Assembly: GCF_031292145.1 (NCBI RefSeq)
Contig: NZ_JARLHR010000120.1
DNA: 64,000 nucleotides
Reading direction: 5' to 3' (one strand)
From: Clostridium sp.
GTDB taxonomy: Bacteria > Bacillota > Clostridia > Clostridiales > Clostridiaceae
In this document: piece after piece, positions 3,275 to 32,533 of the stretch
Layout of the letters: each line of letters begins with the position of its first letter
Position numbering within the stretch: position 1 is the stretch's first letter
Position numbers and translations under genes: made by a program
Notes under the pieces: model-generated
Told to the model about the DNA's origin: nothing
The model's input: the letters and a program-made list of their open reading frames with translations, nothing else
The model's database searches: none

Positions 3275-4108
3275 TTATAACTTTTCACGTCTCTTTGTAG
3301 ATTTCATAAATAATTTCTTTAAGGATTCTGTATCATTATCTTTGATTGCATCCTTTATTTTGTCCAATTCAGTTTCAAAATTTACTATAGATTTTAAAAG
3401 ATTCTCTTTATTCCCTAGGAAAAGCTCACTCCATAAATCTTCATTAATATTTGCTATTCTAGTTAAATCTCTATAACTGTCTCCAACAAAACTTCCAGTA
3501 TCTCTGCCTTCTACATCACTATTTACCAGTGCAACTGCTAATGCATGCGGTAATTGGCTTGTAAAACCTATCATTTCATCATGATATTCAGGTGTTATCC
3601 TTCTAACCCTCTTAAATCCTATTTCATATGCTAAGTTTTCTATAAGCTTAAGATTCTCTTCTTTATTTCTATCTACTGGAGTCAAAATATAATTCGCTCC
3701 CTTAAATACTTCACTAGTTGCGAAATCTATTCCTTTCTTTTCTCTTCCTGCCATTGGATGTCCAAAAACGAAATCAATATTTTCTGGTAAAATGTTTATT
3801 ATATCATCAATAAACATTTTCTTAATTCCAGTAGCATCCGTTATTACAGCACCATCCTTAAAATTTTCTCTATTATCTATAATAAATTTTTTAACTAACC
3901 TAGGATATAAAGAAATAATTATAAAATCTGCATTTTTAATTATTTCATCGCCATTTGTAAAACCTTCTTTTATTAATCCAAGGTTCTTAGCTTTCTCTAA
4001 AGATTCTTCATTGATATCTATGCCATATACATCATCATACCCTGCTTCTTTTAAAGCCATGGTAAATGACCCTCCAATTACTCCAAGACCTACAACTACT
4101 ATTCTCAT
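3275..4108 (-). CDS. tyrA: prephenate dehydrogenase
   Basis: N-terminal Rossmann motif VVGLGVIGGS and a TyrA-like body. Start moved to MRIVVVG, which sits 8 nt after AAGGAG. Confidence 0.8.
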   Translation of the reverse strand: MRIVVVGLGVIGGSFTMALKEAGYDDVYGIDINEESLEKAKNLGLIKEGFTNGDEIIKNADFIIISLYPRLVKKFIIDNRENFKDGAVITDATGIKKMFIDDIINILPENIDFVFGHPMAGREKKGIDFATSEVFKGANYILTPVDRNKEENLKLIENLAYEIGFKRVRRITPEYHDEMIGFTSQLPHALAVALVNSDVEGRDTGSFVGDSYRDLTRIANINEDLWSELFLGNKENLLKSIVNFETELDKIKDAIKDNDTESLKKLFMKSTKRREKL

Positions 4109-4153
4109 ATTCATAGCTCCTTTATTCCGTATATTTAACAAAATTATAAATTA

Positions 4154-4211
4154 GGCACATGAAAGAAAATAATAGACAAGTATGCTGATCTATTATTTTT
4201 TTGATTGTACC
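4154..4211. mobile_element. family-A MITE-like element, copy A2 (short form), followed by a partial right-arm fragment to about 4283
   Basis: GGCACATGAAAGAAAATAATAGAC...TCTATTATTTTTTTGATTGTACC flanked by TTA/TTA. Positions 4240-4283 resemble the right arm of copy A6. Confidence 0.7.
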
Positions 4212-4290
4212 TTAGTATACTAGCCTATTTCATCTTAAGACGAAACAGACTAGCATATCTGGTTTATTATTTTATTTTCTATACTCCCAC

Positions 4291-5304
4291 TTAAATTTCT
4301 TTACCTTCTATATTAGCTACTGCCTTAACCTTAGTCATTAATGCATCAAATTGATCTGGAGTAAGTGATTGTGGTCCATCACTTAATGCATTTTCAGGAT
4401 CATTATGAACTTCTATCATAAGACCATCTGCCCCTGCCATAATTGCTGCTTTAGCCATTGGTTCTACTAGGTAAGCATAACCTCCTGCATGACTTGGATC
4501 AACGATTATAGGTAAGTGTGATAATTTCTTTATTACTGGAATAGCTTGTAAATCTAATGTATTTCTTGTGATAGTTTCAAAAGTTCTTACACCTCTTTCA
4601 CAAAGAATTACATTTTCATTTCCACCAGCCATAATATATTCTGCTGACATTAACCATTCTTCTATAGTTGCTGATAAACCTCTCTTTAATAATATCGGTG
4701 TTTTAGTCTTACCAACTTGCTTTAGTAAATCAAAGTTTTGCATATTTCTAGCACCAATTTGAATCATATCAACTTCTTCAACAAAAGCATCTAAATAATC
4801 TGTTGACATAAGTTCTGTTACTATAGGAAGTCCTGTTTCTTTCTTTGCTGCTTTTAAAAGTTTTAATCCTTCAAGCTCTAATCCTTGGAAACTGTAAGGT
4901 GAAGTTCTTGGTTTAAATGCTCCTCCTCTTAAGAAGTTAGCACCTGCTGCCTTTACTCTCTTAGCTACTTCAATGATTTGTTCTTCACTTTCTACAGAAC
5001 ACGGACCTGCCATTATTCCAATTCTTCCTCCGCCAACTACTGATCCTTGAACATTAACTACTGTATCTTCTGGCTTGAATATTTTATTAGCTTTCTTAAA
5101 AGGTTCTTGAACCTTCATAACTCTATCTACACCTTTTAGAACTTGTATTTTTCTAGGATCTATTATAGAAGTATCTCCTACAACACCTATTATGTAGTAT
5201 GTCTCACCCTTGGATAGATTAGTTTCTAATCCCTTTGATTCAACTACTGCCTTTACCTTCATTACTTCTTCATCACTTGCTTTTGGGTTCATAATAATTA
5301 TCAT
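4291..5304 (-). CDS. aroF: 3-deoxy-7-phosphoheptulonate (DAHP) synthase, type I-beta, with N-terminal ferredoxin-like regulatory domain
   Basis: 337 aa. The KDO8P/DAHPS-like TIM barrel shows GPCSVES, KPRTSPY and DPSH motifs. It lies inside the aro operon. Confidence 0.85.
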   Translation of the reverse strand: MIIIMNPKASDEEVMKVKAVVESKGLETNLSKGETYYIIGVVGDTSIIDPRKIQVLKGVDRVMKVQEPFKKANKIFKPEDTVVNVQGSVVGGGRIGIMAGPCSVESEEQIIEVAKRVKAAGANFLRGGAFKPRTSPYSFQGLELEGLKLLKAAKKETGLPIVTELMSTDYLDAFVEEVDMIQIGARNMQNFDLLKQVGKTKTPILLKRGLSATIEEWLMSAEYIMAGGNENVILCERGVRTFETITRNTLDLQAIPVIKKLSHLPIIVDPSHAGGYAYLVEPMAKAAIMAGADGLMIEVHNDPENALSDGPQSLTPDQFDALMTKVKAVANIEGKEI

Positions 5305-5444
5305 TTTTACTTTCCTCCTGTACTTCTACTTTTGATTTTAATTTTTACTTTTCTACTGTACTCCTATACTACATTTTTAATATATTATTAGAAATAAACT
5401 AATGCTTATTAGCTATCTCTTAATATCTACTATTATATAATATA

Positions 5445-5885
5445 CTATTCAGACACTTTTTTCAATTCTAATGCCTTCATAGCCAATATATATCCAATTT
5501 CACCAAAACCACACATTTGCCCCATACAGGCTGGTGCAGTTACAGATTTTTTTCTAAAATCTTCTCTTGCATGCACATTTGATAGATGTACTTCAACTGT
5601 ATCAATATTAGTTCCTTTTATAGCATCGTGAATCGCATAACTATAATGAGTATAAGCCCCTGGATTTATTATTATTCCATCATAGTTCTCAAAATATGCT
5701 CTTTGTAATTCATTAATTATTTCACCTTCACAATTACTTTGAAATAACGTTATTTCATGGCCTCTTTTTTTGCCTTCTTCTTTAATATATTCACATATAT
5801 CTTCAAAAGATTTTGTACCATAGATACCTTTTTCCCTAACCCCAACCATATTTAAGTTAGGTCCATTAATAACCATAATCTTCAC
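5445..5885 (-). CDS. aroQ: type II 3-dehydroquinate dehydratase
   Basis: VINGPNLN...YTHYS...HLSN motifs. Start placed at the GTG (MKIMVING) after AAGGTGG; ATG 5876 is an alternative start. Confidence 0.85.
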   Translation of the reverse strand: MKIMVINGPNLNMVGVREKGIYGTKSFEDICEYIKEEGKKRGHEITLFQSNCEGEIINELQRAYFENYDGIIINPGAYTHYSYAIHDAIKGTNIDTVEVHLSNVHAREDFRKKSVTAPACMGQMCGFGEIGYILAMKALELKKVSE

Positions 5886-5920
5886 TTTAACACCACCTTG
5901 CACAATTAACAATTTATTTT

Positions 5921-6421
5921 TTATTCAAGAATTTTTTTCACTTCATCTACAGTTTCTCTTAGACCTTTATCATTATTAACTATTACATCCGCTGATAACT
6001 TATATAACTCGTAACGTTCTTCATACAGTTTAACTAATTTTTCTCTACCTTCTTTAAGTAGCGGTCTATTGGAAGTATCTATATCACTTAAAAGATCATC
6101 TAGAGGCCTATCTATAAAAATAATTAAAGCTTCTTTTTTTAATATTTCAATATTTTCTTGCCTTTTGATTACTCCACCTCCTGAAGAAATTAATATACTA
6201 CTTTTTTCAGATAATTCCTTACAGGCTAAAGTTTCAAAATCTCTAAAGTAATCTTCACCTTTTTCAAAAAGTTCTGGGATAGTTTTAGATGTCATATTTT
6301 CAATATACTTATCCATATCAAAATATTTAATATTTAACTCATCACTTACTAATTTGCCTATAGTGCTCTTTCCACAGCCAGGCATACCAATAAGCACTAC
6401 TTTATCTTTCACATTCACCAC
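5921..6421 (-). CDS. aroK: shikimate kinase
   Basis: 166 aa with Walker A GMPGCGKST and a size typical of AroK. Abuts aroE. Confidence 0.85.
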   Translation of the reverse strand: MVNVKDKVVLIGMPGCGKSTIGKLVSDELNIKYFDMDKYIENMTSKTIPELFEKGEDYFRDFETLACKELSEKSSILISSGGGVIKRQENIEILKKEALIIFIDRPLDDLLSDIDTSNRPLLKEGREKLVKLYEERYELYKLSADVIVNNDKGLRETVDEVKKILE

Positions 6422-7234
6422 CTATTTAAATTCATCTTGAAACATTGAATATAACTCTTGAGTTACTTCATCATTAAATGAATATCCTTGCCATATTTCT
6501 TCTGCTTTTATAGCCTGCCCAACTAACATTTCAATTCCACCACATACTTTTTTATTTAAAGCTTTTCCCATTCTTAAGAATTTCGTCTCCTTAGGGTTAT
6601 ATATTATATCTATTAAAGTTTCAAAATTATTTATTATCTCTTCATTTACAGGAGTCCCATCTATATGCGGATACATTCCAAGAGGAGTTGTATTTATTAA
6701 AATTTCTCCTTTTATATCTACTATTTCTTCATAAGATTTACTTACAATTCTTTCATCACTATAACCAATATTGTCTTTTTTATTTCTTGATACTAGATAA
6801 ATCTTTTTAATTCCTTCATCTAATAAATAAGTAATTACAGCCTTTGCTGCGCCACCATTCCCTAGTACCATTGCAATATTATCTTTAATATTAACATTAT
6901 GATTCTTAATTATAGTTCCAAAACCAAAATAATCAGTATTATACCCAAATAATTTTTTATCTTTTAAACAAATAGTATTAACTGCACCTATTTTCTTAGC
7001 TTCTTCTGATATAAAATCTAAGTACTCCATTACATATTGCTTATAAGGAATAGTTACATTTACTCCTTTTATCTTTAAGATTCTCAATGAATCTATAGCT
7101 TTTCCTAAATCTTCTTTTTCTACTTCAAAAAGCTTATATGCCCCCTGCATATTTAAAGCTTTAAAAAGTGTATTATGAATTTTAGGTGAAAGACTATGTG
7201 GCAACTTCTCTCCTATAAGTCCATAAAAATCCAA
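6422..7234 (-). CDS. aroE: shikimate dehydrogenase
   Basis: 270 aa with SLSPKIHN, NVTIPYK, NTD and GNGGAAKA motifs. Confidence 0.85.
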   Translation of the reverse strand: MDFYGLIGEKLPHSLSPKIHNTLFKALNMQGAYKLFEVEKEDLGKAIDSLRILKIKGVNVTIPYKQYVMEYLDFISEEAKKIGAVNTICLKDKKLFGYNTDYFGFGTIIKNHNVNIKDNIAMVLGNGGAAKAVITYLLDEGIKKIYLVSRNKKDNIGYSDERIVSKSYEEIVDIKGEILINTTPLGMYPHIDGTPVNEEIINNFETLIDIIYNPKETKFLRMGKALNKKVCGGIEMLVGQAIKAEEIWQGYSFNDEVTQELYSMFQDEFK

Positions 7235-7412
7235 ATTAATGCCCCCTTTTCAATGATTTGTTCCTTTATTGTGTATTGCTAATAAATTTCTTGGTTATAC
7301 TTAAAAATTTCTTGGTTGCACTCCGTGCTTTTTTTATATGTGTAAAAAATTTTTGTTGTGCTTAAAAGTTCTCAATTGTGCTTCGCACTCTTTTTAAAGG
7401 TGCGGATTTTTT

Positions 7413-8558
7413 CTAAGGTGTATATTTCCTATATCCACCAATTAACTTAAAGTAAGCACTGCTCTGTTCAATTAATTTTAAAGCCTTCGTTACTTTTTCG
7501 TCTTCAAGATTACCTTCAAAGTCAATATATAAGAAGTATTTCCAAGCACCCTTTTCCATAGGCCTTGATTCAATTTTCATCATATTTATATCATTTTCCG
7601 CGAAATGTCTTAATAATTTATATAGTGTACCTGCTTTATGTTCAAGAGAAAATACAACACTTACTTTATTACAACTTAAATCTGTTTCAAGATTTTTGGA
7701 TATTATTATAAATCTTGTTGAATTATCGCTTTGATTATTTATATTTTCTTTAATAATATCTAAATTATATATGCTGGCAGCCCTGTTACTTGCAATAGCA
7801 GCCTTTGACGTATCTTTCAAATCACTTATTAACTTTGCACTTACTGATGTACTATGAAAAGGTATAAGCTTCCAATGACTATAATTTTTTAAAAATTCAG
7901 TGCTTTGCTGCATTGGTTGTGGATGTGAATATACTTCTTTAATGGTATCTAAGGTTGTACCTTTAACACCAATTAAATGTTGATTTATTTTAATGCATTC
8001 TTCTCCAACAATGTAAAAACCATATTTATATAAAAGATCATAAACTTGTGCAATACCACCTGTTGATGAATTCTCTATTGGTACAACTCCATAATCAATT
8101 TCATCATTTTTTACTGCTAGAAATACATCTTCAAATTCATTACATTCTTTAGGATTTTCTACAATACCAAAATATTTTAGCATTGCTTCTTCACAAAATG
8201 ATCCCGAAACTCCATAGAATCCAATCTTACCTTGCTTTTTACCTTTAGCTTCTAATGAATCCATATTTTTTTCTAAAGTTCTTTCTGCTTCTAGCATTTT
8301 TCTGCTTTGCAACTCTCTAGCAACTTCCATTAAACCTATAAAAAACTTTCTTGTTTCTTGTGCATAATCGCTATTTTTTAAGTATTCTACATTTTTCTCA
8401 ACAACTTCATCTTCTCTACTCCTATTGAAAATTGGTAAGTTATTAATTTTTTTATAGTTACCTATTTTAATTACTGTATCCATACGTTCTTCAAAAAGCT
8501 TAGTTATTTCTTTATCTATTTCATCAATTCTATTCCTATAATTATCTATATCTGACAT
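7413..8558 (-). CDS. pheA: bifunctional chorismate mutase / prephenate dehydratase (P-protein) with ACT domain
   Basis: N-terminal CM type-2 helix (RNRIDEIDKEI), a PDT core (ESRP motif IESRPM) and a C-terminal ACT-like region. Confidence 0.8.
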   Translation of the reverse strand: MSDIDNYRNRIDEIDKEITKLFEERMDTVIKIGNYKKINNLPIFNRSREDEVVEKNVEYLKNSDYAQETRKFFIGLMEVARELQSRKMLEAERTLEKNMDSLEAKGKKQGKIGFYGVSGSFCEEAMLKYFGIVENPKECNEFEDVFLAVKNDEIDYGVVPIENSSTGGIAQVYDLLYKYGFYIVGEECIKINQHLIGVKGTTLDTIKEVYSHPQPMQQSTEFLKNYSHWKLIPFHSTSVSAKLISDLKDTSKAAIASNRAASIYNLDIIKENINNQSDNSTRFIIISKNLETDLSCNKVSVVFSLEHKAGTLYKLLRHFAENDINMMKIESRPMEKGAWKYFLYIDFEGNLEDEKVTKALKLIEQSSAYFKLIGGYRKYTP

Positions 8559-8600
8559 TTCACACTCTCCACACTCTTTTAATTAAATTGACAATTATTA

Positions 8601-8759
8601 GGCACATGAAAGAAAATAACAAGTCCAAAATGCCATGATTATTTTTCATCAGACAAGGAAGCAGGTTGGTCTCATAGCGAGCCTATTAGGGCAATCTGCT
8701 GACGCAGTATGATGGAAAATAGGCTTGGCAGATGGACTTGTTATTTTTTTGATTGTGCC
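8601..8759. mobile_element. family-A MITE-like element, copy A3 (full length, about 160 bp)
   Basis: GGCAC...GTGCC ends flanked by TTA/TTA. Tip CTCATAGCGAGCCTATTAGG. Lies between pheA and aroC inside the operon. Confidence 0.8.
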
Positions 8760-8972
8760 TTAATGCACAATTATAAGTTCATAGTTCACAATCATTAATG
8801 TACAATTTACACTTATAAGTTTATATTCCACACTTATGTAGCTGAATTTTAAAAGTCAAAATTTATCTTTTACGTTTAAGTATTAAACGCTGCTCTGGCA
8901 AACCTTATATTTTGTTCCTAGCACTTTCTGCTTTAGTCTATTTCTTAATTTTGAATTTATGATTATGCATTT

Positions 8973-10046
8973 TTATAAAATCAAATCAAGTATTCCTATT
9001 GCAGTTACTGCCTCAATTACTGGAACTGCTCTTTGTACTATACATGGATCATGTCTTCCTTCAATTACGAGATCTGTTTCCTTCTTTTCTGCAATGTCTA
9101 TTGTTCTTTGAGACGTTGATATTGATGGTGTTGGCTTTATTCCGACTTTGAATAATATTGGCATTCCATTAGTTATACCACCTGTGATTCCACCATTATT
9201 ATTTGTGTAAGTCTTTACTTGATCTCCATCATAATAGTATTCATCATTACACTCAGAACCTCTAAGCTTAGTCATCTCAAAGCCTTTTCCAAATTCTATT
9301 CCCTTAACTGCCGGAACAGAGAAGATTAAATGAGCTAAAGTAGATTCAACTGAATCAAAAAATGGATTTCCTATTCCAGCATTAATTCCAAGTACAGTAC
9401 ATTCAATAGTTCCACCTGTAGAATCTTGTTCTTTTCTTGCCTTAAGGATAGTATTTCTCATTTCCTCTTCTTTTTCTGGATTCAAAAGAGGCAGTTCCTT
9501 TATCTTTAAGTCACCCAAAAGTTCCTTACTTAATTCAACATCATAAAAACTCTTATCTTCAATATCCCCTATGCTCTTAACATGAGCTCCTATAACAATC
9601 CCTTTTACTTCTAAAACCTGCTTACATACGGCTCCCGCAAATACTAATGGTGCAGTAATTCTCCCCGAGAAATGCCCGCCTCCTCTGTAGTCATTAAATC
9701 CATTATATCTAATGAATCCAGGATAATCTGCGTGTCCAGGTCTCATTAAGTCCTTAAGCTTTCCATAGTCCTTCGAATGCATATCTGCATTTCTTATTAC
9801 TGCACAAAGAGGCGTGCCTGTTGTTTTCCCTTCAAAAAATCCACTTAAAATTTCAGGCGCATCGACTTCTTTTCTTGCAGTAGATAAATTGCTCTTACCT
9901 GGTGCACGACGAGCCATCTCTTTCATAACTTCTTCCATGTTAATTTCAATGCCAGATGGAAGTCCATCAATAGTAATCCCTATTCCTACTCCATGAGATT
10001 CACCAAAAATAGAAACCTTTAATTTATTGCCCCACATTCCACTCAT
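8973..10046 (-). CDS. aroC: chorismate synthase
   Basis: FGESHG and GRHDPC motifs. Start moved to ATG (MSGMWGNK), 7 nt after AGGAGGTG. Overlaps the aroA stop. Confidence 0.85.
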   Translation of the reverse strand: MSGMWGNKLKVSIFGESHGVGIGITIDGLPSGIEINMEEVMKEMARRAPGKSNLSTARKEVDAPEILSGFFEGKTTGTPLCAVIRNADMHSKDYGKLKDLMRPGHADYPGFIRYNGFNDYRGGGHFSGRITAPLVFAGAVCKQVLEVKGIVIGAHVKSIGDIEDKSFYDVELSKELLGDLKIKELPLLNPEKEEEMRNTILKARKEQDSTGGTIECTVLGINAGIGNPFFDSVESTLAHLIFSVPAVKGIEFGKGFEMTKLRGSECNDEYYYDGDQVKTYTNNNGGITGGITNGMPILFKVGIKPTPSISTSQRTIDIAEKKETDLVIEGRHDPCIVQRAVPVIEAVTAIGILDLIL

Positions 10047-11334
10047 CAAATACACCTCCTACATTTTTAAAGTCTTCCCAAAATTGTGGATATGATTTTG
10101 AAACACATTCATAATCCTTAAGTATTATAGGCTCTTTACATACAGTAGAAGCTATAGCTATAGTCATTGCAATTCTATGATCCTTATGACTCCAAACTTC
10201 AGTACCGCCTTTTAATTCTTTAACTCCTTCAATTATTAAGCCATCTTCTTTTTCTGTAATTTTAGCACCTAGCTTATTAAGTTCAGAAGTTACTGCTGCT
10301 AATCTATCACATTCCTTGATTCTAAGTCTTCCAGCGTTTATTATTTCTGTTGTTCCTTCGCTTAAGGCTGCAACTAAAGATACTACTGGAATTATATCTG
10401 GGCATTGAGAACCATCAATTACAGTTGCTTTTAACTTCTCATTTACGGTTCCAATTAAACCATTATTCTTATTGTTTATTTCAACGCCCATTCTTGTTAG
10501 AATATCTATTACTTCTTTGTCTCCTTGAAGAGAATCTACCTTCAAATCATTAAGCACTACATTATTTAAAAGTGCATCTGCACAGAAGAAAAATGCTGCT
10601 TGTGAATAATCTCCTTCAACTCTATACTCTCTGCTCTTATAAGTTTGATTTCCCTTTATTATAAATTCTTCATAATTATTATTTACAATTTCTATACCAA
10701 AATCATTCATAGCACTTAAAGTTAAGTCAATGTAACCTTTTGATTCCATTTCTGTTGTTATCACTATTTTAGAATCTCCATCTAAAAGAGGAAGCGTAAA
10801 TAATAATCCTGTTATAAATTGAGAGCTAATATTACCTTTAACTTTAAATTCTCCTGGCTGTAATCTGCCTTCTGTCTTTAAATCTAGTACTCCTTCTTTA
10901 TAAGAATATTTTATATTCTGCTCATCAAATATATTGTAATATGTATCTAGAGGTCTTTTTCCTAAATTACCTCTTCCAACAAATCTATTAACTCCATCAA
11001 ATAAAGCTGCTATCGGTACTAAAAATCTTAGGGTTGATCCTGATTCGTTACAATCTATGGTTCTTTCCTTTTTTACTTTATTAGCTTTAATATTTTCAGG
11101 ACTTTTGATGCCATTAACCTCAAGATAATCTTCCTTTTTAGTTATTTTTGCACCTAGAGATGACATAGCTTCAATAGTAGCTATAATATCATCTGAATAA
11201 TCTATGTTTGTAACCTTACTGATTCCATCTCCAAGAGCCGCACAAATAACAGCTCTATGCGCCATGCTCTTAGATGGTGGTATCTTGACTTCACCATTTA
11301 ATTTAGTTGGATTAATTTTAATATTTCCCATCAT
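10024..11334 (-). CDS. aroA: 3-phosphoshikimate 1-carboxyvinyltransferase (EPSP synthase)
   Basis: 436 aa with PPSKSMAHR, LGNSGT-like ESGSTLRF and RIKECDR motifs. Confidence 0.85.
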   Translation of the reverse strand: MMGNIKINPTKLNGEVKIPPSKSMAHRAVICAALGDGISKVTNIDYSDDIIATIEAMSSLGAKITKKEDYLEVNGIKSPENIKANKVKKERTIDCNESGSTLRFLVPIAALFDGVNRFVGRGNLGKRPLDTYYNIFDEQNIKYSYKEGVLDLKTEGRLQPGEFKVKGNISSQFITGLLFTLPLLDGDSKIVITTEMESKGYIDLTLSAMNDFGIEIVNNNYEEFIIKGNQTYKSREYRVEGDYSQAAFFFCADALLNNVVLNDLKVDSLQGDKEVIDILTRMGVEINNKNNGLIGTVNEKLKATVIDGSQCPDIIPVVSLVAALSEGTTEIINAGRLRIKECDRLAAVTSELNKLGAKITEKEDGLIIEGVKELKGGTEVWSHKDHRIAMTIAIASTVCKEPIILKDYECVSKSYPQFWEDFKNVGGVFDEWNVGQ

Positions 11335-11350
11335 ATCACCCCTTAGTTCA

Positions 11351-11378
11351 GTTAAGAGTTAAGAGTTAAAAGTTAAGA
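11351..11378. repeat. heptanucleotide tandem repeat GTTAAGA x4 (one variant unit)
   Basis: gttaaga gttaaga gttaaaa gttaaga read directly, in the aroB-aroA spacer. The same heptamer is repeated at 50921-50955 on the other strand. Confidence 0.9.
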
Positions 11379-11495
11379 GTTGGAGAATTATTCATATATT
11401 ACTATAGTTTTTTTGTTCTTCAAAACCTTGTTCTTTAACTATTACTTCTTATACTTTTTATTGCTTTTGGTTATTTATTCTTATTAATTTATTTT

Positions 11496-12548
11496 TTAAT
11501 TAAAAAAATTAACATTAGTTTTTTCTAAAAATGATTCTCCAATATTATTTAACAATACTACTTTTAAAACATTATCAATATTTTTCTTATCTAATGCTAT
11601 TGTATCTAGAATTGCTGAACTATCATTTATTTCTACTTCATATGGAAGACCATATTGTATTAATATTTCTTTTATCTCATTGCTTACCCCTTGCTCTGTA
11701 AGCCCTTTATTTTCTGCAATATTACTTATTTCATACATACCTATGGCAACAGCTTCTCCATGAGTGAATTTTTTAAAATTATAATAAGTCTCTATTGCAT
11801 GCCCTAAAGTATGCCCAAAGTTTAATAGCATTCTTTCCCCTGTATCTTTTTCATCATTTTCCACAACACATTTTTTTATAAAGCAGCATTTGTGGATAAT
11901 AGACTCTATATTGTGCATAACTTCTTCTTTATTTTTTAAACTTTCTAAGAAATAAAAGAATTCTTTATCTTTTATACATCCATACTTTATAACTTCAGCC
12001 ATCCCATCCTTAAAAAATCTTTCGCTTAAAGTTTCTAGTACATTTGGATCTATTAAAACTAACTTAGGATGATAAAAACTTCCTACTAAATTTTTACCTC
12101 TTTCTAAATCTACAGCAACTTTTCCACCTACACTGCTGTCAACTTGAGCAAGTAATGAAGTTGGCATTTGAATAAAACTTATTCCCCTTAAGAAAGTAGA
12201 TGCAACAAATCCACCAAGATCCCCAATTACTCCTCCACCAAGAGTTAGTATTAAATCACTTCTTGTTATTTTAAAATCTAAAAGTTCATTATATATTAAT
12301 GGAAGGGTAGTAAATGCCTTAGTTTCTTCACCTGGCTCTAAAGCCATTAATTTAACATCATACCCTGACTCAACTAAAGATGACTTAACTTTATCCCCAT
12401 AATGATAATTCACATTTTTATCCGTTAATATAAATATTTTCTTACCCCTATAAACCTTGCTAATTTCTGAGTTTACCTTATCAATTAATCCCTTTTTAAT
12501 TATAATTGGATAACTTCTTTCGCCAAGCTGAACAACCAAATCTTCCAT
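11496..12548 (-). CDS. aroB: 3-dehydroquinate synthase
   Basis: 350 aa with [11 protein letters not shown] and metal-binding HTLGHAIE motifs. First gene of the aro operon. Confidence 0.85.
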
Positions 12549-12641
12549 TCTGTTTTGCCCCCTATACTTTAATTTTAATTAATGATGAATGATTAATTAT
12601 TAATAAAATTACTTCGTAATTTCTTTAATTATATATTTTTA

Positions 12642-12662
12642 GAAATCTCCAAAGGAGATTTC
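12642..12662 (-). promoter_or_regulatory. perfect 9-bp stem hairpin in the aroB 5' leader
   Basis: GAAATCTCC-TTT-GGAGATTTC, with no U-tract. Lies between the attenuator-like terminator and the aroB RBS. Confidence 0.4.
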
Positions 12663-12693
12663 ACCATTCATCTTTCATTATTAACATACATAT

Positions 12694-12726
12694 AAAAAAA
12701 TGGAACTCATATATAAATGAGTTCCA
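12694..12726 (-). terminator. intrinsic terminator (candidate attenuator) upstream of aroB
   Basis: Minus sense reads TGGAACTCAT-TTATAT-ATGAGTTCCA followed by TTTTTTT. It lies 146 nt upstream of the aroB ATG and 42 nt downstream of the aromatic-rich ORF stop. Confidence 0.75.
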
Positions 12727-12768
12727 CTAAATACCAATATCACCTGATATCAAAAACTTGTATAAATA

Positions 12769-12903
12769 TTAAAAACTCATTAAAAAGATATTTTCAGTTT
12801 TTTTGCAAAATAAATAGCCAGCGCTAAAATAAAAGCCCCAGAACATAAAATAAAAAAAGCTATAAAATTTTTGCATAACTGATTTCACAATATCTTTCTC
12901 CAT
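12769..12903 (-). CDS. 44-aa aromatic-rich small ORF (candidate aro leader peptide, or a small membrane peptide)
   Basis: SD GGAG sits 6 nt before the ATG. Peptide MEKDIVKSVMQKFYSFFYFMFWGFYFSAGYLFCKKTENIFLMSF has 10 F, 4 Y and 1 W. An in-frame ATG at 12915 has no SD. Confidence 0.5.
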   Translation of the reverse strand: MEKDIVKSVMQKFYSFFYFMFWGFYFSAGYLFCKKTENIFLMSF

Positions 12904-12981
12904 GATTTTCTCCATTTCTAAAATAATAATTATTTTACGAATATTAATATAACATTAATTTATAAAATTTGTCTTTTTACC

Positions 12982-13009
12982 ATTATAACAAACTCTAATA
13001 CATTGTCAA
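12982..13009 (-). promoter_or_regulatory. consensus sigma-A promoter driving the small ORF and the aro leader
   Basis: Minus sense reads TTGACA, a 16-nt spacer, then TGtTATAAT (extended -10). Confidence 0.6.
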
Positions 13010-13325
13010 TACAAATTAACTCTTTTTCATTTTTTACGTCATTTCTTTATTTATTTATCAGTAATATTACACTTAAAATATTACAATATCAAAAATAAAT
13101 GCATATAATTTATCTTTTATCAAAATTCTTTTTTTTGCACTGCAATATTATTTATCTAGATAATTATATACTTGCTCATATTTATTACTACGTAATTCAT
13201 TTAATAAACTAAGCATAATATCACCTTCTTTATCCATATTATTATACATTAAAATATTATTAATAAAATACATGTAACTGCAAATAATAAGAAAGTATTC
13301 TAAAGGACAAGGTGGTAATAAATAT

Positions 13326-14702
13326 ATGATTAAAAAATTTTTATCTATTTTTATAATGATTATAATATTTGTTCTAGTAAGCTGCAGCGCTAAAAATTCA
13401 ATCAAAAATATAGAAGTTGAGCAACCTAAAGCCTATGATACAATCCCAACAAGGTCAAGTAATAAACTTGAGGTGGATTATACCAACTTTAAGGGATTAA
13501 ACTTGGTTGAAGATGAGATTAAATTTAAAATTGATGGTAACTCATTAAATCTAAACTTACCAATATATTTAGATAAAAATAGATATTACATATCTTTGAA
13601 TGAGTTAATTGAAAAACTTAATGGTGAAATAGAAAAAGTTGATAATTCTTTAAATATAGTTATTAATAATAATATCTATTGCATTAACTTTGATAATAAT
13701 ACAGTTACATGTCCTAACTATAAATTTCCTCTAAAAAAAGCATTATTAAATTCTGATGACATGTATTATATAAATTTTTCAGATTTTTCGCATATGCTTA
13801 ATTTATATACTAGATGGGACAAAGATAATAAAATAATAGATTGTAAGATAGATGGTTTTAAAAATACAAATCTTACGCCTTATAAATCAACAATAAATCA
13901 AATAGGCCTCATAAGATTTGAAGATGTGGGAGTAACCTCCCAAGCCTACTCAAAAGATTACTTTGAAAAACTTCGTATTATAGCGCATTATATGTATGAA
14001 AAAAAAATACCTTATCATATTGCATGGATTCCTAGATATGTTATTCCAAATCAAGGAGTTGATAATGATCCTTTAACTAAGAATAATTTTGAACTAGCTG
14101 AAATGGTATATAGTTTAGATTATTTCACTTCTCATAATGGACTAATTGGTCTTCACGGATATACTCACCAATGTGGAAACACTGAATCAGGTGCTGGTTT
14201 TGAATTTGGAAAATTTGATCCTTCTGATACAAACTTTGAAGAAAAAATCCAAAAAGCCATTAAAACTGCATCTTATTTAGATATACCAATTAAATTCTTT
14301 GAAGTCCCTCATTATGAAATTACGCCAAGTCAAAATAAAATTGCTGAAAAATATTTTAAGATATTATACTATCCATTTAATGATTATGGAAGAGATAAAG
14401 CTGATTTAACAAAACCCCAGCTTAGTCCTTACAATAAGGCTTCCTATTACATTTCAACACCTCTTGATTATATCCCTGTTGACCAAGAAGAGGTTACTTT
14501 AGATAAACTACGCAACAATGCTAATGAAGCTAAAATGGGAAGTGTATTTTTCCATCCATCTTTAGAAGATAATTATATTTCATTAACTCAAGATAACGAT
14601 ACTTCTCCTACTTTTTATTATGTTAAAGATTCAACCTTAAAAAAATTAATAGGTATATTAGAGGAAAGGGGCTTTAAAATGATTAGCGTAGCAGATATTT
14701 AG
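13326..14702 (+). CDS. lipoprotein with stalk-like N-terminal domain and DUF2334/polysaccharide-deacetylase-like C-terminal domain
   Basis: Signal peptide with lipobox LVSC and RBS AAGGTGG. The DUF2334 assignment comes from the general sequence character (HGYTHQ) only. Confidence 0.5.
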   Translation: MIKKFLSIFIMIIIFVLVSCSAKNSIKNIEVEQPKAYDTIPTRSSNKLEVDYTNFKGLNLVEDEIKFKIDGNSLNLNLPIYLDKNRYYISLNELIEKLNGEIEKVDNSLNIVINNNIYCINFDNNTVTCPNYKFPLKKALLNSDDMYYINFSDFSHMLNLYTRWDKDNKIIDCKIDGFKNTNLTPYKSTINQIGLIRFEDVGVTSQAYSKDYFEKLRIIAHYMYEKKIPYHIAWIPRYVIPNQGVDNDPLTKNNFELAEMVYSLDYFTSHNGLIGLHGYTHQCGNTESGAGFEFGKFDPSDTNFEEKIQKAIKTASYLDIPIKFFEVPHYEITPSQNKIAEKYFKILYYPFNDYGRDKADLTKPQLSPYNKASYYISTPLDYIPVDQEEVTLDKLRNNANEAKMGSVFFHPSLEDNYISLTQDNDTSPTFYYVKDSTLKKLIGILEERGFKMISVADI

Positions 14703-29744: not shown

Positions 29745-30052
29745 AATTTATATATTATATATATTGTGATGAATAGGAGTATTAGTAATAAATATATCCT
29801 AGGCACAATAAAAAAATACGATGCATCTTTGGTCTATTATTTTATTATGTGCCTTACAGAGAGCTGTTGGTCGGTGTAAAACAGTGTTATATTATTATGA
29901 ACTTGCCTAGGAGCTTACTTGTTTAAAGCAAGTACGGTAAACCCGTTAAAGTTTTTGAGTGAGAAGAATTAATTTAATTTATTTCTTCTAATTAAGAGTG
30001 GTACCACGGAATTATGCTTTCGTCTCTTTGTTTTAGAGATGAAGGCTTTTTT
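29745..30052 (+). promoter_or_regulatory. T-box riboswitch leader (probable Leu specifier CUU) with terminator
   Basis: GA motif TGATGA, AGTA box, AG bulge AGAGAG, distal loop GGTGTAA, F-box CCGTTA and T-box AATTAAGAGTGGTACCACGG at 29990-30009. The terminator is GCTTTCGTCTCT/AGAGATGAAGGC plus T6 at 30016-30052. CTT at 29902-29904 sits in the expected specifier position. Confidence 0.85.
29802..29853. mobile_element. family-A MITE-like element, copy A5 (short), inside T-box Stem I
   Basis: GGCACAATAAAAAAATA...TATTATTTTATTATGTGCC, flanked by CTA/TTA. Confidence 0.7.
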
Positions 30053-30082: not shown

Positions 30083-32533
30083 ATGGCAAATTACGGAACT
30101 AAAATCGATGAAAAATGGCAAAAAATATGGGAAGAAAATGAAACTTATAAGTTTAATCCTGAAAATGCAGATAAGAAACTTTATACACTTGAAATGTTCT
30201 CTTATCCATCAGGTGCTCAACTTCATGCTGGTCACTGGTTTAACTATGGGCCAACAGATTCATGGGCAAGACTTAAGAGAATGCAGGGATATAACGTATT
30301 CCAACCAATGGGCTTCGATGCTTTTGGATTACCTGCCGAAAACTATGCTATAAAAACAGGAATACATCCACAAGATTCTACTTTAAAGAATATAGAAACA
30401 ATGGAAAAACAATTAAAATCAATGGGTGCAATGTTCAACTGGGAAAATGAAGTTGTTACTTGTCTTCCTGATTATTATAAATGGACTCAATGGTTATTCC
30501 TAAAACTTTACGAAAAAGGTTTAGCTTATAGAAAAAAGGCACCTGTAAATTGGTGTCCATCATGCAACACCGTTTTAGCAAATGAACAAGTTGTTGATGG
30601 AGCTTGCGAAAGATGTAGTACAGAAGTTAAGAAGAAAGACCTTACTCAATGGTTCTTCAAAATAACTGACTACGGTGATGAATTACTTGATAAGCTAGAT
30701 GGTTTAGATTGGCCTGAAAAGACTAAATCTATGCAAAAACACTGGATTGGAAGATCTTACGGCGCTCAAGTTACTTTCAAGGTTAAAGATTCAGACTTAC
30801 AATTTGATGTCTTTACTACAAGAGTTGATACTTTAAATGGTGTTACATATGTAGTTTTAGCTCCTGAAAATAAATTAGTTGATGAGCTTACACTTCCAGA
30901 ATATAAGACTGCTGTTGAAGAATATAAAGAAGCTGCTGCTAAACAATCTGAAATTGAAAGACAATCAAATACAAAAGAAAAGACAGGCGTATTTACTGGA
31001 TCTTATGCTATGAATCCTATAAACGGTAAAGTAGTTCCTATTTGGATTTCTGATTATGTATTAGCTACTTATGGTACTGGATGCGTTATGGCTGTTCCGG
31101 CTCATGATGAAAGAGACTTTGCTTTTGCAACTAAATTTAATTTACCAATTGAAAGAGTTATAACCGATAAAGACAACACTAATCCAGAACTTCCATATTG
31201 CGAATATGGAGTACTTGTTAATTCAGGTAAATTTGATGGATTAACAACTGATGACGCTAAAAAGAAAATAGTTGAAGATTTAGAAAAAGATAAATTAGGT
31301 GCAATGAAGATTAACTTCAGATTAAGAGACTGGTTAGTTTCAAGACAAAGATATTGGGGTGCTCCAATTCCAATTGTATATTGTGACGATTGCGGAATAG
31401 TTCCAGTCCCTGAAAAAGATCTTCCAGTAGAACTTCCATACGATGTTGAATTTACTCCAGATGGTAAATCACCACTCGGTAAATCTGAAAAATTCATAAA
31501 TACCACTTGTCCTCACTGCGGAAAACCTGCAAAGAGAGAAGCTGATACTTTAGATACTTTTGTATGTTCCTCATGGTACTACTTAAGATATGCAGATAGC
31601 AAAAATGCAGATGCACCTTTTGATCCTGAAAAAATCAATAAGATTCTTCCTGTAGATAAATACGTTGGTGGCCCAGAACATGCCTGCATGCACTTATTAT
31701 ATGCAAGATTTATAACAAAAGCTTTAAGAGATATGGGATACTTAAACTTTGATGAACCATTCTTAAGCTTAACTCACCAAGGCTTAATATTAGGGCCAGA
31801 TGGACTTAAAATGAGTAAATCAAAAGGAAATACAATTTCTCCTGATGATTACATTAAAGAATACGGTGCTGATGTATTTAGAATGTATTTAATGTTTGGA
31901 TTTGGATACACTGAAGGTGGAGCATGGAGTGATGATGGAATAAAATCTGTTGGTAAATTTGTAGATAGAATTGAAAGAACTCTAGAAACTTGCAGAAATA
32001 TAATAGCTTCAAATGAAAATCCTAAAGATTCCATAGATTCAGCTGAAAAAGAATTAAACTTCTGGAAGCACACTGCTATAAAAGGTGTTACTGAAGATGG
32101 AGAAAAAATGCAATTTAACACTGCAATAGCAAGACTTATGGAGCTTACAAATGCAATCAATAAGTATATTCAAGAAGAAGTAAAAAATCCAAAATTCCTA
32201 AAGGAAACTATAGCTGATTTCTTAAAATTACTTGCACCATTTGCTCCACACTTTACTGAAGAACAATGGAACTTACTTGGAAATGCATCAACAATATTTA
32301 ATGAAAAATTCCCTAAATTTGATCCTTCTGCTTTAATTAAGGATGAAGTTGAAATTGCTATTCAAGTCAATGGTAAGATAAAAGCAAAAATTATGGTAGC
32401 TTCAAACTTAGATGAAGAAGGTATAAAGAAAGCTTCTTTAGAAAATGAAACTATTAAAGAAAATACTGAAGGTAAAAATATTGTTAAAGTAATTGTAATT
32501 AAAGGAAGACTTGTTAATATAGTTGTAAAATAA
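30083..32533 (+). CDS. leuS: leucine--tRNA ligase
   Basis: 816 aa with a HIGH-type motif (HAGH) and KMSKS (LKMSKSKGN). RBS AGGAGGA. Confidence 0.95.

What the first reader, a model, noticed from the sequence alone, without database searches (positions are those of the whole stretch)
12694..13009. Aromatic-rich leader ORF plus terminator upstream of the aro operon: possible ribosome-mediated attenuation in a Firmicute
Three elements line up upstream of aroB. A near-consensus promoter (TTGACA-16-TGtTATAAT, 12982-13009) comes first. It is followed by an SD-preceded 44-codon ORF (12903-12769) with 15 aromatic residues, 13 of them in the 20-residue stretch FYSFFYFMFWGFYFSAGYLF, covering Phe, Tyr and Trp. 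Next is a perfect 10-bp stem plus U7 terminator (12726-12694), and aroB starts at 12548. The last sense codons of the ORF (AUGAGUUUU, 12780-12772) repeat the 3' arm of the terminator, so they can pair with its 5' arm (GGAACUCAU) as an antiterminator. A ribosome that reaches the stop codon would mask this segment and favour termination. A ribosome stalled at the upstream Phe/Tyr/Trp codons would leave it free and favour read-through. This matches the logic of the enterobacterial pheA, trp and his leaders. It would be unusual in Firmicutes, which typically use T-boxes or TRAP and are reported to couple transcription and translation weakly. I saw no convincing alternative promoter between the terminator and aroB.
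Basis: partly seen in the sequence, partly recalled or inferred. Interest (0 to 1): 0.75.

Follow-up and report, generated by a model that had tools for sequence, protein, structure and literature searches.

The report
Aromatic leader-peptide attenuator of aro operon
A tiny gene rich in Phe, Tyr and Trp codons, followed by a stop-transcription hairpin, sits in front of the aromatic amino-acid biosynthesis operon; it is very probably a real ribosome-sensed on/off switch, but this class of switch was already predicted in Clostridia in 2019.

Summary
The module consists of a consensus promoter, a Shine-Dalgarno (SD) site, a 44-codon ORF with 15 aromatic codons and an intrinsic terminator. It recurs ahead of the aro operon in 41 distinct leaders of related Clostridium species. 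It also recurs in C. difficile, Crassaminicella and Trichococcus, and in about 80 metagenome loci. Wherever the next gene could be read and named it is aroF, aroB, pheA or aroE; in one lineage it is a LarA-like racemase with a symporter.

The proposed antiterminator (ORF end against the terminator 5' arm) is supported by covariation. Cognate pairs also bind better than non-cognate pairs (0 of 10,000 permutations). The stop codon usually lies 9 nt past the AUG of the antiterminator strand, so a terminating ribosome would mask that strand.

A second conserved hairpin (P1: CUGGGGC, a loop encoding Phe-Tyr-Phe, GCGCUGG) lies inside the ORF.

[quoted passage not shown] 2019 (supplement). That motif is absent from Rfam, Pfam and NCBIfam, and I found no experimental test of it. 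The antiterminator evidence and the near-invariance of P1 are the parts added here.

The parts
12982..13009 (-). Sigma-A-type promoter: -35 TTGACA (13009-13004), 16-nt spacer with TG, -10 TATAAT (12987-12982). The inferred transcription start is near 12975.
   Evidence: 12/12 consensus match. TTGAC[A/T], a 16-17 nt spacer and a -10 hexamer (TATAAT in 40, TATATT in one) lie 35-110 nt before the start codon in all 41 orthologous leaders.
12910..12913 (-). Shine-Dalgarno GGAG, 6 nt before the ATG at 12903.
   Evidence: Sequence. A purine-rich SD-like run (GGAG/GGAGG in most) precedes the chosen start codon in the 41 leaders.
12769..12903 (-). Leader ORF of 44 codons plus UAA: MEKDIVKSVMQKFYSFFYFMFWGFYFSAGYLFCKKTENIFLMSF.
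   Evidence: Homologues found by protein search. Two deletions inside the core (6 nt in the short-form leaders, 21 nt in L033) keep the reading frame. Third-codon positions vary most in the core. No Pfam or NCBIfam family.
12808..12867 (-). Regulatory codon run, codons 13-32: 8 Phe, 4 Tyr and 1 Trp (invariant UGG at 12840-12838).
   Evidence: Phe/Tyr exchanges and synonymous UUU/UUC and UAU/UAC changes dominate the variation. Trp is invariant in 36 of 36 unique sequences.
12818..12841 (-). P1 hairpin inside the ORF: 5' arm CUGGGGC (12841-12835), loop UUUUAUUUUA encoding Phe-Tyr-Phe (12834-12825), 3' arm GCGCUGG (12824-12818).
   Evidence: Predicted by RNAalifold. 100% of cells are pairable, with one compensatory and six compatible one-sided changes. 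Stem sequence unchanged in the 8 distant leaders read, including C. difficile, Trichococcus, Crassaminicella and Cellulosilyticum, with loops of 4-14 nt in the predicted folds. Rare codons GGC, AGC and UUC are fixed here, against 8-16% genomic use.
12772..12781 (-). Segment A, the antiterminator 5' strand AAUGAGUUUU, formed by the last codons of the ORF.
   Evidence: The same RNA motif UAAUGAGU is read in other frames in other lineages, e.g. ..TNEFV*.
12730..12751 (-). Spacer hairpin GAUAUCAG-GUGAUA-UUGGUAUU between A and B. It would shorten the A:B loop.
   Evidence: Predicted in the window RNA only. Conservation was not established.
12716..12725 (-). Segment B, GGAACUCAUU. It is the strand shared by the antiterminator (with A) and the terminator (with C).
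12694..12728 (-). Intrinsic terminator: stem 12728-12717 / 12710-12699, loop UUAUAU, seven U at 12700-12694 (the two 5'-most can extend the stem to 12 pairs).
   Evidence: Energy -15.7 kcal/mol. A terminator lies 22-66 nt after the stop codon in all 41 leaders, with many compensatory changes.
3275..12548 (-). Regulated aro operon: aroB, aroA, aroC, pheA (chorismate mutase / prephenate dehydratase), aroE, aroK, aroQ, aroF (DAHP synthase), tyrA.
   Evidence: Pfam assignments. Operon continuity is inferred from strand and spacing only; several gaps of 140-414 nt exist.

Best explanation
This is a ribosome-mediated transcription attenuator. It sets expression of the common aromatic amino-acid pathway according to the supply of charged tRNA-Phe, tRNA-Tyr and tRNA-Trp.

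Transcription starts at a strong constitutive promoter. The 5' leader encodes a 44-codon peptide with 13 aromatic codons in codons 13-32. Downstream, segment B (GGAACUCAUU) can pair in two ways: with segment A (AAUGAGUUUU, the last codons of the ORF) as an antiterminator, or with segment C as a terminator followed by seven U.

When aromatic aminoacyl-tRNAs are plentiful, the ribosome reaches the stop codon and covers A. B then pairs with C and transcription ends before aroB. When any of the three is scarce, the ribosome stalls at least 17 nt upstream of A. A then pairs with B as soon as B emerges, and RNA polymerase reads into the operon.

Shown here by sequence and comparison: all the parts, their conservation, their linkage to aro genes, the A:B and B:C alternatives with covariation, and the placement of the stop codon. 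Inferred: translation of the ORF, stalling, and the response to amino acids.

A further inference concerns the conserved P1 hairpin inside the ORF, which is followed by TTATTT at 12813-12808. That matches the NusG pause motif TTNTTT. P1 may pause RNA polymerase near 12803, before A is made, until the ribosome catches up and melts it. This would supply the transcription-translation synchrony that Firmicutes otherwise lack.
For: 1. The module is conserved. All 41 distinct leaders from the aroB loci of Clostridium and a few related genera (Sarcina, Haloimpatiens) have promoter, SD, ORF and terminator.

2. Linkage follows the head of the operon, not one gene. The leader precedes aroF in most species. 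It precedes aroB where aroF has moved, as in the window.

3. An unbiased DNA-pattern scan of metagenomes gave 91 hits. Where the next ORF could be read and named it was aroF, pheA, aroB or aroE, or a LarA-like racemase with a symporter. Two loci had an unassignable or chimeric next ORF. One 1.59-Mb contig carries three copies in front of three different units.

4. Eight of eight peptide-based look-ups in distant taxa land directly before a DAHP synthase gene.

5. The antiterminator covaries. In 27 of 41 leaders the nascent-RNA minimum-energy fold pairs at least 5 nt of the terminator 5' arm with the ORF end. In the window the antiterminator is -11.7 kcal/mol and the terminator -15.7 kcal/mol, and the antiterminator is the best fold until C is made.

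6. Stop-codon geometry fits, and segment A is conserved whatever the reading frame.

7. There are signs of coding selection. Deletions in the core are in frame, third positions are the most variable, Phe and Tyr exchange freely, and Trp is invariant.

8. The median gap from terminator to the next gene is 48 nt.

9. The Breaker laboratory independently predicted an attenuator of this description (PMC6429828).

10. Pausing-assisted ribosome attenuation has a Firmicute precedent in vmlR (PMC9226507). The NusG motif is described in 10.1101/2022.10.28.514324.
Against: - There are no expression, Term-seq or ribosome-profiling data for any member.
- The architecture is not the classical three-hairpin one. 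P1 shares no strand with A, so without any translation the default would be read-through rather than termination.
- Firmicute RNA polymerase is reported to outrun ribosomes. Timing therefore depends on an unproven pause.
- The P1 stem is almost invariant rather than covarying. A plain pause hairpin does not require that, so something beyond simple attenuation may act there.
- L033 lacks the 3' arm of P1 yet keeps the rest of the module.
- In the window, 145 nt separate the terminator from aroB. A weak promoter missed by the consensus scan cannot be excluded there.
Confidence: 0.8

Rival explanations
1. The switch is set mainly by a trans-acting factor or small ligand that recognises the invariant P1 hairpin (CUGGGGC / GCGCUGG). 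On this view it works like a protein-dependent attenuator or a riboswitch, and translation of the ORF is secondary or only helps.
For: The P1 stem sequence is unchanged in every distant leader read, from Clostridium to C. difficile, Crassaminicella, Cellulosilyticum and Trichococcus, while the loop length varies. Rare GC-ending codons are fixed there against the genomic bias. That is more constraint than base pairing alone needs.
Against: P1 shares no strand with the antiterminator or the terminator, so no route from P1 to the termination decision is visible. The SD, the start codon, the in-frame core deletions, the stop-codon placement and the choice of Phe/Tyr/Trp codons would all be left unexplained. 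L033 has lost half of P1 but keeps the ORF and terminator. There is no match to any Rfam family.
Confidence: 0.1
2. The ORF is a stand-alone gene for a small membrane peptide with its own promoter and terminator. The aro operon is then expressed by leaky read-through or from an unseen promoter.
For: The peptide looks like a single transmembrane helix: a 20-residue hydrophobic core flanked by Lys. It has a strong promoter, an SD and a strong terminator. Databases list it as a hypothetical protein.
Against: It is never found away from aromatic-pathway genes. Several paralogous copies occur in one genome, each ahead of a different aromatic unit. There is no room for a promoter before the next gene in 27 of 41 loci. 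Its C-terminal part is conserved as RNA across reading frames, not as peptide. Substitutions are Phe to Tyr rather than Phe to Leu/Ile/Val.
Confidence: 0.05
3. The nascent peptide is an arrest peptide that senses free aromatic amino acids inside the ribosome, in the manner of TnaC. Stalling would then depend on amino-acid concentration rather than tRNA charging.
For: Non-aromatic residues are also highly conserved (W-G-F-Y-F-S-A-G-Y, followed by C-K-K).
Against: Conservation of G, S, A and G is explained at the RNA level by P1. Codon choice is fixed to GGC, AGC and GCU, not merely the amino acid. The logic would also be inverted: stalling when amino acids are abundant would free A and switch a biosynthetic operon on. 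The loop between W-G and S-A-G varies in length, which fits an exit-tunnel sensor poorly.
Confidence: 0.05

Closest known systems
[quoted passage not shown] 2019, BMC Microbiol 19:66, PMC6429828, Table S1 and supplementary text; type locus C. novyi NT NC_008593.1:2308872-2309418)
   Same: [quoted passage not shown] About half of its 336 examples lie upstream of aroF and the rest near other shikimate genes. It occurs in Firmicutes, including C. perfringens, C. sartagoforme and C. difficile. All of these features hold for the window element and its relatives.
   Different: The published text I could read describes no antiterminator, no stop-codon geometry and no experiment. No alignment is held, so identity is judged from the description and not from a sequence comparison.
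Enterobacterial trpL and pheL (pheA leader) attenuators
   Same: They share a leader peptide with codons for the pathway's end product, a terminator and antiterminator sharing one strand, and ribosome position as the deciding factor. By my recollection (not checked here) the trp leader energies are of the same order as the -12 and -16 kcal/mol computed here.
   Different: There is no sequence relationship (no Rfam hit). The ORF is much longer (44 codons against about 14-15, from memory) and carries 13 dispersed regulatory codons for three amino acids. The upstream hairpin P1 does not share a strand with the antiterminator, so the predicted state without translation is read-through rather than super-attenuation.
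Corynebacterium glutamicum aroR leader (cited in the PMC6429828 supplement)
   Same: It is a leader peptide with an F-Y-F motif ahead of an aromatic biosynthesis gene.
   Different: According to the same supplement it belongs to a different phylum and has a different peptide and RNA structure.
uORFC-13-1 motif upstream of aroF in Acholeplasma (Brewer et al. 2021, PMC8632094)
   Same: It is a uORF with Phe codons and a terminator ahead of aroF.
   Different: It is restricted to Acholeplasma and is described as a separate motif. It was not compared at the sequence level here.
Firmicute ribosome-dependent attenuators: S. aureus ilv leucine-rich leader (PMC5794164), his leaders of the B. cereus group and C. 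difficile (PMC2965389, PMC9413887), B. subtilis vmlR (PMC9226507)
   Same: They show that leader-peptide attenuation exists in Firmicutes. For vmlR, the paper's title lists RNA polymerase pausing among the regulatory layers, and the paper mentions NusG-dependent pausing and TTNTTT.
   Different: They involve different amino acids or signals and unrelated sequences.
T-box leader (RF00230)
   Same: It is the usual Firmicute sensor of tRNA charging. One is present in this same window, ahead of leuS at 29812-30030.
   Different: The aro leader has no T-box features and no Rfam hit at E<=10. It would sense charging through the ribosome, not by binding tRNA directly.

Membership tests
[quoted passage not shown] 2019) | Short ORF with a ribosome-binding site, located upstream of an intrinsic terminator stem | tested here: met
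[quoted passage not shown] 2019) | Conserved F-Y-F encoded within the loop of a P1 hairpin | tested here: met
   The P1 loop UUU UAU UUU at 12834-12826 encodes Phe24-Tyr25-Phe26.
[quoted passage not shown] 2019) | Located upstream of aroF or other shikimate / Tyr-Phe pathway genes | tested here: met
   aroB in the window. aroF, pheA, aroB and aroE in relatives.
[quoted passage not shown] 2019) | Taxonomic range in Firmicutes, including C. perfringens, C. sartagoforme and C. difficile | tested here: met
   Homologous leaders in L035 (C. perfringens), L041 (C. sartagoforme) and L171 (C. difficile).
[quoted passage not shown] 2019) | Match to the published alignment or covariance model, or to the C. 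novyi type locus | not testable with these tools
   No alignment is among the held supplements. The motif is not in Rfam 15.
Classical leader-peptide transcription attenuator (trp/pheA/his type) | Translatable leader ORF enriched in codons for the pathway's end products | tested here: met
   15 of 44 codons are aromatic, with SD and ATG conserved. Translation itself was not shown.
Classical leader-peptide transcription attenuator (trp/pheA/his type) | Intrinsic terminator between leader and first structural gene, with no promoter in between | tested here: met
   Median gap 48 nt. In the window itself the gap is 145 nt with no consensus promoter.
Classical leader-peptide transcription attenuator (trp/pheA/his type) | Antiterminator mutually exclusive with the terminator, and a ribosome at the stop codon masks its 5' strand | tested here: met
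   Covariation and permutation tests. Energies. Stop-codon position.
Classical leader-peptide transcription attenuator (trp/pheA/his type) | Upstream 1:2 hairpin that shares a strand with the antiterminator, giving termination when the leader is not translated | tested here: not met
   P1 (12841-12818) does not overlap segment A (12781-12772). No conserved partner for A was found upstream.
Classical leader-peptide transcription attenuator (trp/pheA/his type) | Read-through rises on starvation for the cognate amino acids and depends on leader translation | not testable with these tools
   This needs reporter fusions, Term-seq or in vitro coupled assays.
Rfam leader families (T-box RF00230, Phe_leader, Trp_leader and others) | Covariance-model match | tested here: not met
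   No hit at E<=10 in 12300-13500. The only T-box in the window is at 29812-30030.
Stand-alone small membrane protein or type I toxin | Occurrence independent of the function of the downstream gene | tested here: not met
   Wherever the downstream gene could be assigned it belongs to an aromatic-pathway unit.

The most novel reading that the evidence does not exclude
The leader may be more than a classical attenuator. Its P1 hairpin keeps the same stem sequence, with almost no covariation, in every leader read from Clostridium to a lactobacillale. It holds the single Trp codon in its stem and Phe-Tyr-Phe codons in its loop. P1 could be a sequence-specific module that, together with the TTNTTT motifs created by Phe/Tyr codons themselves, sets a NusG/NusA-dependent pause. 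Such a pause would re-couple the ribosome and RNA polymerase in bacteria with 'runaway' transcription. Alternatively, P1 could take a second regulatory input.
Probability: 0.25. Interest if true: 0.65.

Novelty: already known. Interest (0 to 1): 0.4.

Why it matters
The aro operon supplies chorismate for Phe, Tyr, Trp, folate and quinones, so this switch probably governs a central pathway in many Clostridia, including C. difficile and C. perfringens.

Firmicutes are thought to rely on T-boxes, riboswitches and RNA-binding proteins because their RNA polymerase outruns ribosomes. A widespread, strongly conserved leader-peptide attenuator is a good system for asking how ribosome sensing still works there.

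The element is missing from Rfam, Pfam and NCBIfam. Genome annotation calls it a hypothetical protein or nothing at all. The comparative data here would allow a proper family model to be built.

Tried and rejected
- Rfam at gathering and at E<=10 thresholds: no family over the leader. None near aroB in 15 more distant loci.
- Pfam and NCBIfam on the peptide: nothing.
- A second copy in the window: none within 3 mismatches of the core.
- Aromatic-rich leaders upstream of aroB in the aroB loci that lacked a peptide hit (mostly Lachnospiraceae, plus Paenibacillus and a few Clostridium): none comparable, with at most 5-9 aromatic residues per 20.
- An independent aroB promoter downstream of the terminator: no consensus match.
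- The 22-codon ORF upstream of the promoter (13214-13146): not conserved, so dropped.
- A conserved upstream partner for segment A (a true 1:2 hairpin): not found.
- Literature searches for the peptide motif and for 'uORF-13' in main texts: nothing. The description exists only in a supplement.
- The first end-trimming of leader sequences by a T-run regular expression cut some leaders short. It was redone with a hairpin finder.
Full report
**Observation**

On the minus strand the window carries the following parts.
- A promoter TTGACA-16-TGtTATAAT at 13009-12982. It is the only 12/12 match in the 3 kb scanned.
- GGAG at 12913-12910, followed by ATG at 12903.
- A 44-codon ORF ending with UAA at 12771-12769. 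The peptide is MEKDIVKSVMQKFYSFFYFMFWGFYFSAGYLFCKKTENIFLMSF, with 10 Phe, 4 Tyr and 1 Trp.
- A 10-12 bp hairpin followed by U7, at 12728-12694.
- aroB at 12548-11496.

Downstream of aroB lie aroA, aroC, pheA, aroE, aroK, aroQ, aroF and tyrA (Pfam).

In a genome of 25-30% GC, aromatic richness alone is weak evidence. A count of 13 aromatic residues in 20 ties for first among 265 small ORFs in the window, and was reached in 1 of 2000 shuffles.

**Conservation and linkage**

AroB relatives were fetched from 79 genomes; the best is 89% identical, in the C. beijerinckii / C. puniceum group. A tblastn search with the peptide found it upstream of aroB on the same strand in about 40 Clostridium species, plus Sarcina and Haloimpatiens.

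All 41 distinct leaders have these features:
- TTGAC[A/T], a 16-17 nt spacer and a -10 hexamer (TATAAT in 40, TATATT in one), 35-110 nt before the start codon, plus an SD-like purine run;
- an ORF of 33-53 codons with the core FYSF(F)YFxFWGFYFSAGY;
- a terminator 22-66 nt after the stop codon.

In most species the next gene is DAHP synthase (aroF); an example is L003. In the window aroF sits near the end of the operon, and the leader directly precedes aroB. The leader therefore follows the head of the operon and not one particular gene. The median distance from the terminator stem to the next start codon is 48 nt, and 27 of 41 are at most 80 nt. That leaves no room for a separate promoter.

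Two searches that did not start from aroB gave the same picture.
- A DNA pattern from the core (TGGGGCTTTTAYTTTAGYGCTGG) hit 91 metagenome stretches. Where the next ORF could be read and named it was aroF, pheA, aroB or aroE. In one lineage it was a LarA-like racemase with a sodium:solute symporter. Two loci had an unassignable or chimeric next ORF. One 1.59-Mb contig carries three copies, ahead of pheA, aroE and the LarA unit.
- A profile of the peptides found 172 small proteins. They include ones from C. difficile, C. septicum, C. pasteurianum, Intestinibacter, Romboutsia, Crassaminicella, Cellulosilyticum and Trichococcus, a lactobacillale. All eight contexts fetched place the ORF directly before a DAHP synthase gene.

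This pattern is that of a cis-regulatory element of a regulon. It is not the pattern of a free-standing membrane peptide.

**RNA alternatives**

Segment A (AAUGAGUUUU, 12781-12772) can form 10 pairs with segment B (GGAACUCAUU, 12725-12716). B is also the 5' arm of the terminator.

Evidence from the 41-sequence alignment and the combined set:
- A:B is paired in 86% of cells, against 24-45% when the partner is slid by 1-3 columns.
- Four pairs show compensatory changes, and 0 of 500 shuffles reach the observed covariation score.
- Across 79 distinct A/B combinations, cognate duplexes average -9.95 kcal/mol against -8.72 for non-cognate ones. None of 10,000 permutations reached the cognate mean.
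- Divergent lineages change both strands together: AAGAGCC/GGCUCU, AAGGAGUUC/GAACUCUUU and AAGAGUCC/GGACUCUU.
- The terminator itself shows many compensatory pairs.

For the window RNA, the terminator hairpin is -15.7 kcal/mol and the antiterminator arrangement -11.7 kcal/mol. The antiterminator is the minimum-energy fold until the 3' arm of the terminator is made. In 27 of 41 species the nascent-RNA fold pairs at least 5 nt of the terminator 5' arm with the end of the ORF.

**Ribosome geometry and signs of coding**

The stop codon lies 9 nt after the AUG of segment A in 52 of 82 leaders, and within -12 to +41 nt in all of them. A terminating ribosome would therefore cover A. A ribosome stalled at codon 32 or earlier would end at least about 17 nt before A; this last figure is inferred from standard ribosome footprint sizes.

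Several features point to selection on the reading frame and on aromatic codons.
- The two deletions inside the core are in frame: 6 nt in the short-form leaders and 21 nt in L033.
- In the register-safe core, third codon positions carry the most variation: summed entropy 5.56, against 2.12 and 3.20 for positions 1 and 2.
- The common replacements are Phe to Tyr and synonymous changes, not Phe to Leu/Ile/Val.
- The Trp codon is invariant.

By contrast, the motif UAAUGAGU of segment A is read as ..LMSF* in the window and as ..TNEFV* or ..SNE.. in other lineages. It is therefore conserved as RNA and not as peptide.

RNAalifold finds a hairpin inside the ORF, P1. It consists of CUGGGGC (12841-12835), a loop UUUUAUUUUA that encodes Phe-Tyr-Phe, and GCGCUGG (12824-12818).
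- Every observed change keeps pairing: one C-G to U-A swap and six one-sided compatible changes, with 100% of cells paired.
- The stem sequence is the same in all 8 distant leaders read, including C. difficile, Trichococcus, Crassaminicella and Cellulosilyticum, while the predicted loop ranges from 4 to 14 nt.
- Rare codons are fixed there. Gly23 is GGC in 35 of 36 leaders, against 8% genomic use. Ser27 is AGC in 28 of 31 Ser codons, against 11%. The Phe before Trp is UUC in 26 of 26, against 16%.

P1 explains why non-aromatic residues look conserved. It does not overlap segment A, so this is not the classical 1:2 / 2:3 / 3:4 design. With no ribosome present, the predicted default is read-through.

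I infer that P1 serves as a pause hairpin. TTATTT at 12813-12808 matches the Gram-positive NusG pause motif TTNTTT, which lies at -11 to -6 in the non-template strand (10.1101/2022.10.28.514324). This places a possible pause near 12803, with P1 just out of the RNA exit channel and A not yet made. Such motifs are expected by chance in runs of Phe and Tyr codons, so this remains a hypothesis only.

**Comparison with what is known**

Rfam 15 has no match over the leader. Pfam and NCBIfam have none for the peptide.

The literature does hold a match. Stav et al. [quoted passage not shown] It has 336 examples in Firmicutes, about half of them upstream of aroF. [quoted passage not shown] They name C. 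perfringens, C. sartagoforme and C. difficile among the carriers.

Every descriptive feature of that motif matches. A direct sequence comparison was not possible, because no alignment is held. I judge identity with that motif at about 0.85.

Related precedents:
- the C. glutamicum aroR leader;
- an Acholeplasma aroF uORF (PMC8632094);
- Firmicute leader peptides for his (PMC2965389, PMC9413887) and ilv (PMC5794164);
- vmlR, whose paper lists RNA polymerase pausing among its regulatory layers (PMC9226507).

I found no experimental study of uORF-13.

**Verdict**

The kind of element is already on record as a computational prediction.

What this analysis adds:
- covariation support for the antiterminator;
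- the stop-codon rule;
- conservation of segment A independent of reading frame;
- regulon-style multi-copy use;
- the unexplained near-invariance of P1.

Interest is moderate (0.4). The element is a good experimental system for ribosome sensing in Firmicutes, but it is not a new class.

Noticed in passing
window 8600-8760 (minus strand), in the 414-nt aroC-pheA spacer: A long imperfect hairpin of about 160 nt. It is richer in GC than its surroundings. RNA minimum free energy is -59.5 kcal/mol, z = -6.8 against shuffles. It has no Rfam match and occurs once in the window. It could be an inserted repeat element or a structured RNA inside the operon.
   Followed up: partly
window 29812-30030 (+), upstream of the ORF at 30083-32533: A T-box leader (97.8 bits) precedes an 816-aa ORF that I read as leucyl-tRNA synthetase, from its length and sequence motifs; it was not scanned against Pfam. 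If so, the same genome uses a T-box for an aminoacyl-tRNA synthetase and a leader peptide for the aro operon.
   Followed up: partly
L139 and L111 (metagenome contigs OKWK01000001.1 and OFLK01000001.1), with L091, L129 and L143: A copy of the aromatic leader with its terminator precedes a LarA-like racemase (Lar_N/LarA_C). In L111 a sodium:solute symporter follows. The same genomes have further copies before pheA and aroE. This may be salvage of an aromatic 2-hydroxy acid under the same control.
   Followed up: partly
L174 and L175 (Crassaminicella thermophila CP042243.1, about 8 kb apart): Two leader copies, each before its own DAHP synthase paralogue. One paralogue is followed by trpE/G/D, the other by tyrA-aroB-aroA.
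   Followed up: no
L033:2720-2926 (Clostridium sp. DSM 8431): The leader has an in-frame 21-nt deletion that removes GFYFSAG. This takes out the P1 loop and 3' arm, yet the ORF, segment A and the terminator are kept. It is a natural variant for testing the role of P1.
   Followed up: no
L056:1992-2060 (Faecousia sp.): A small ORF, MVKTSVAAQFNYGYYYFFTTKK, lies 2 kb upstream of aroB. It may be an unrelated Tyr/Phe-rich leader.
   Followed up: no
L006:3836-3900, compared with the window: After the terminator, L006 keeps a sequence resembling the ribosome-binding site and start region of aroF (GTAAGGGGGCAAATATAAAT) although aroB now follows. It looks like a scar of the rearrangement that moved aroF to the operon end in the window lineage.
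   Followed up: no
window 12805-12807 and homologous positions: The Cys codon after the aromatic run is UGC in 29 of 30 Cys codons, against 17% genomic use, and is followed by an almost invariant AAAAAA(A). No structure found here explains this RNA-level conservation.
   Followed up: no
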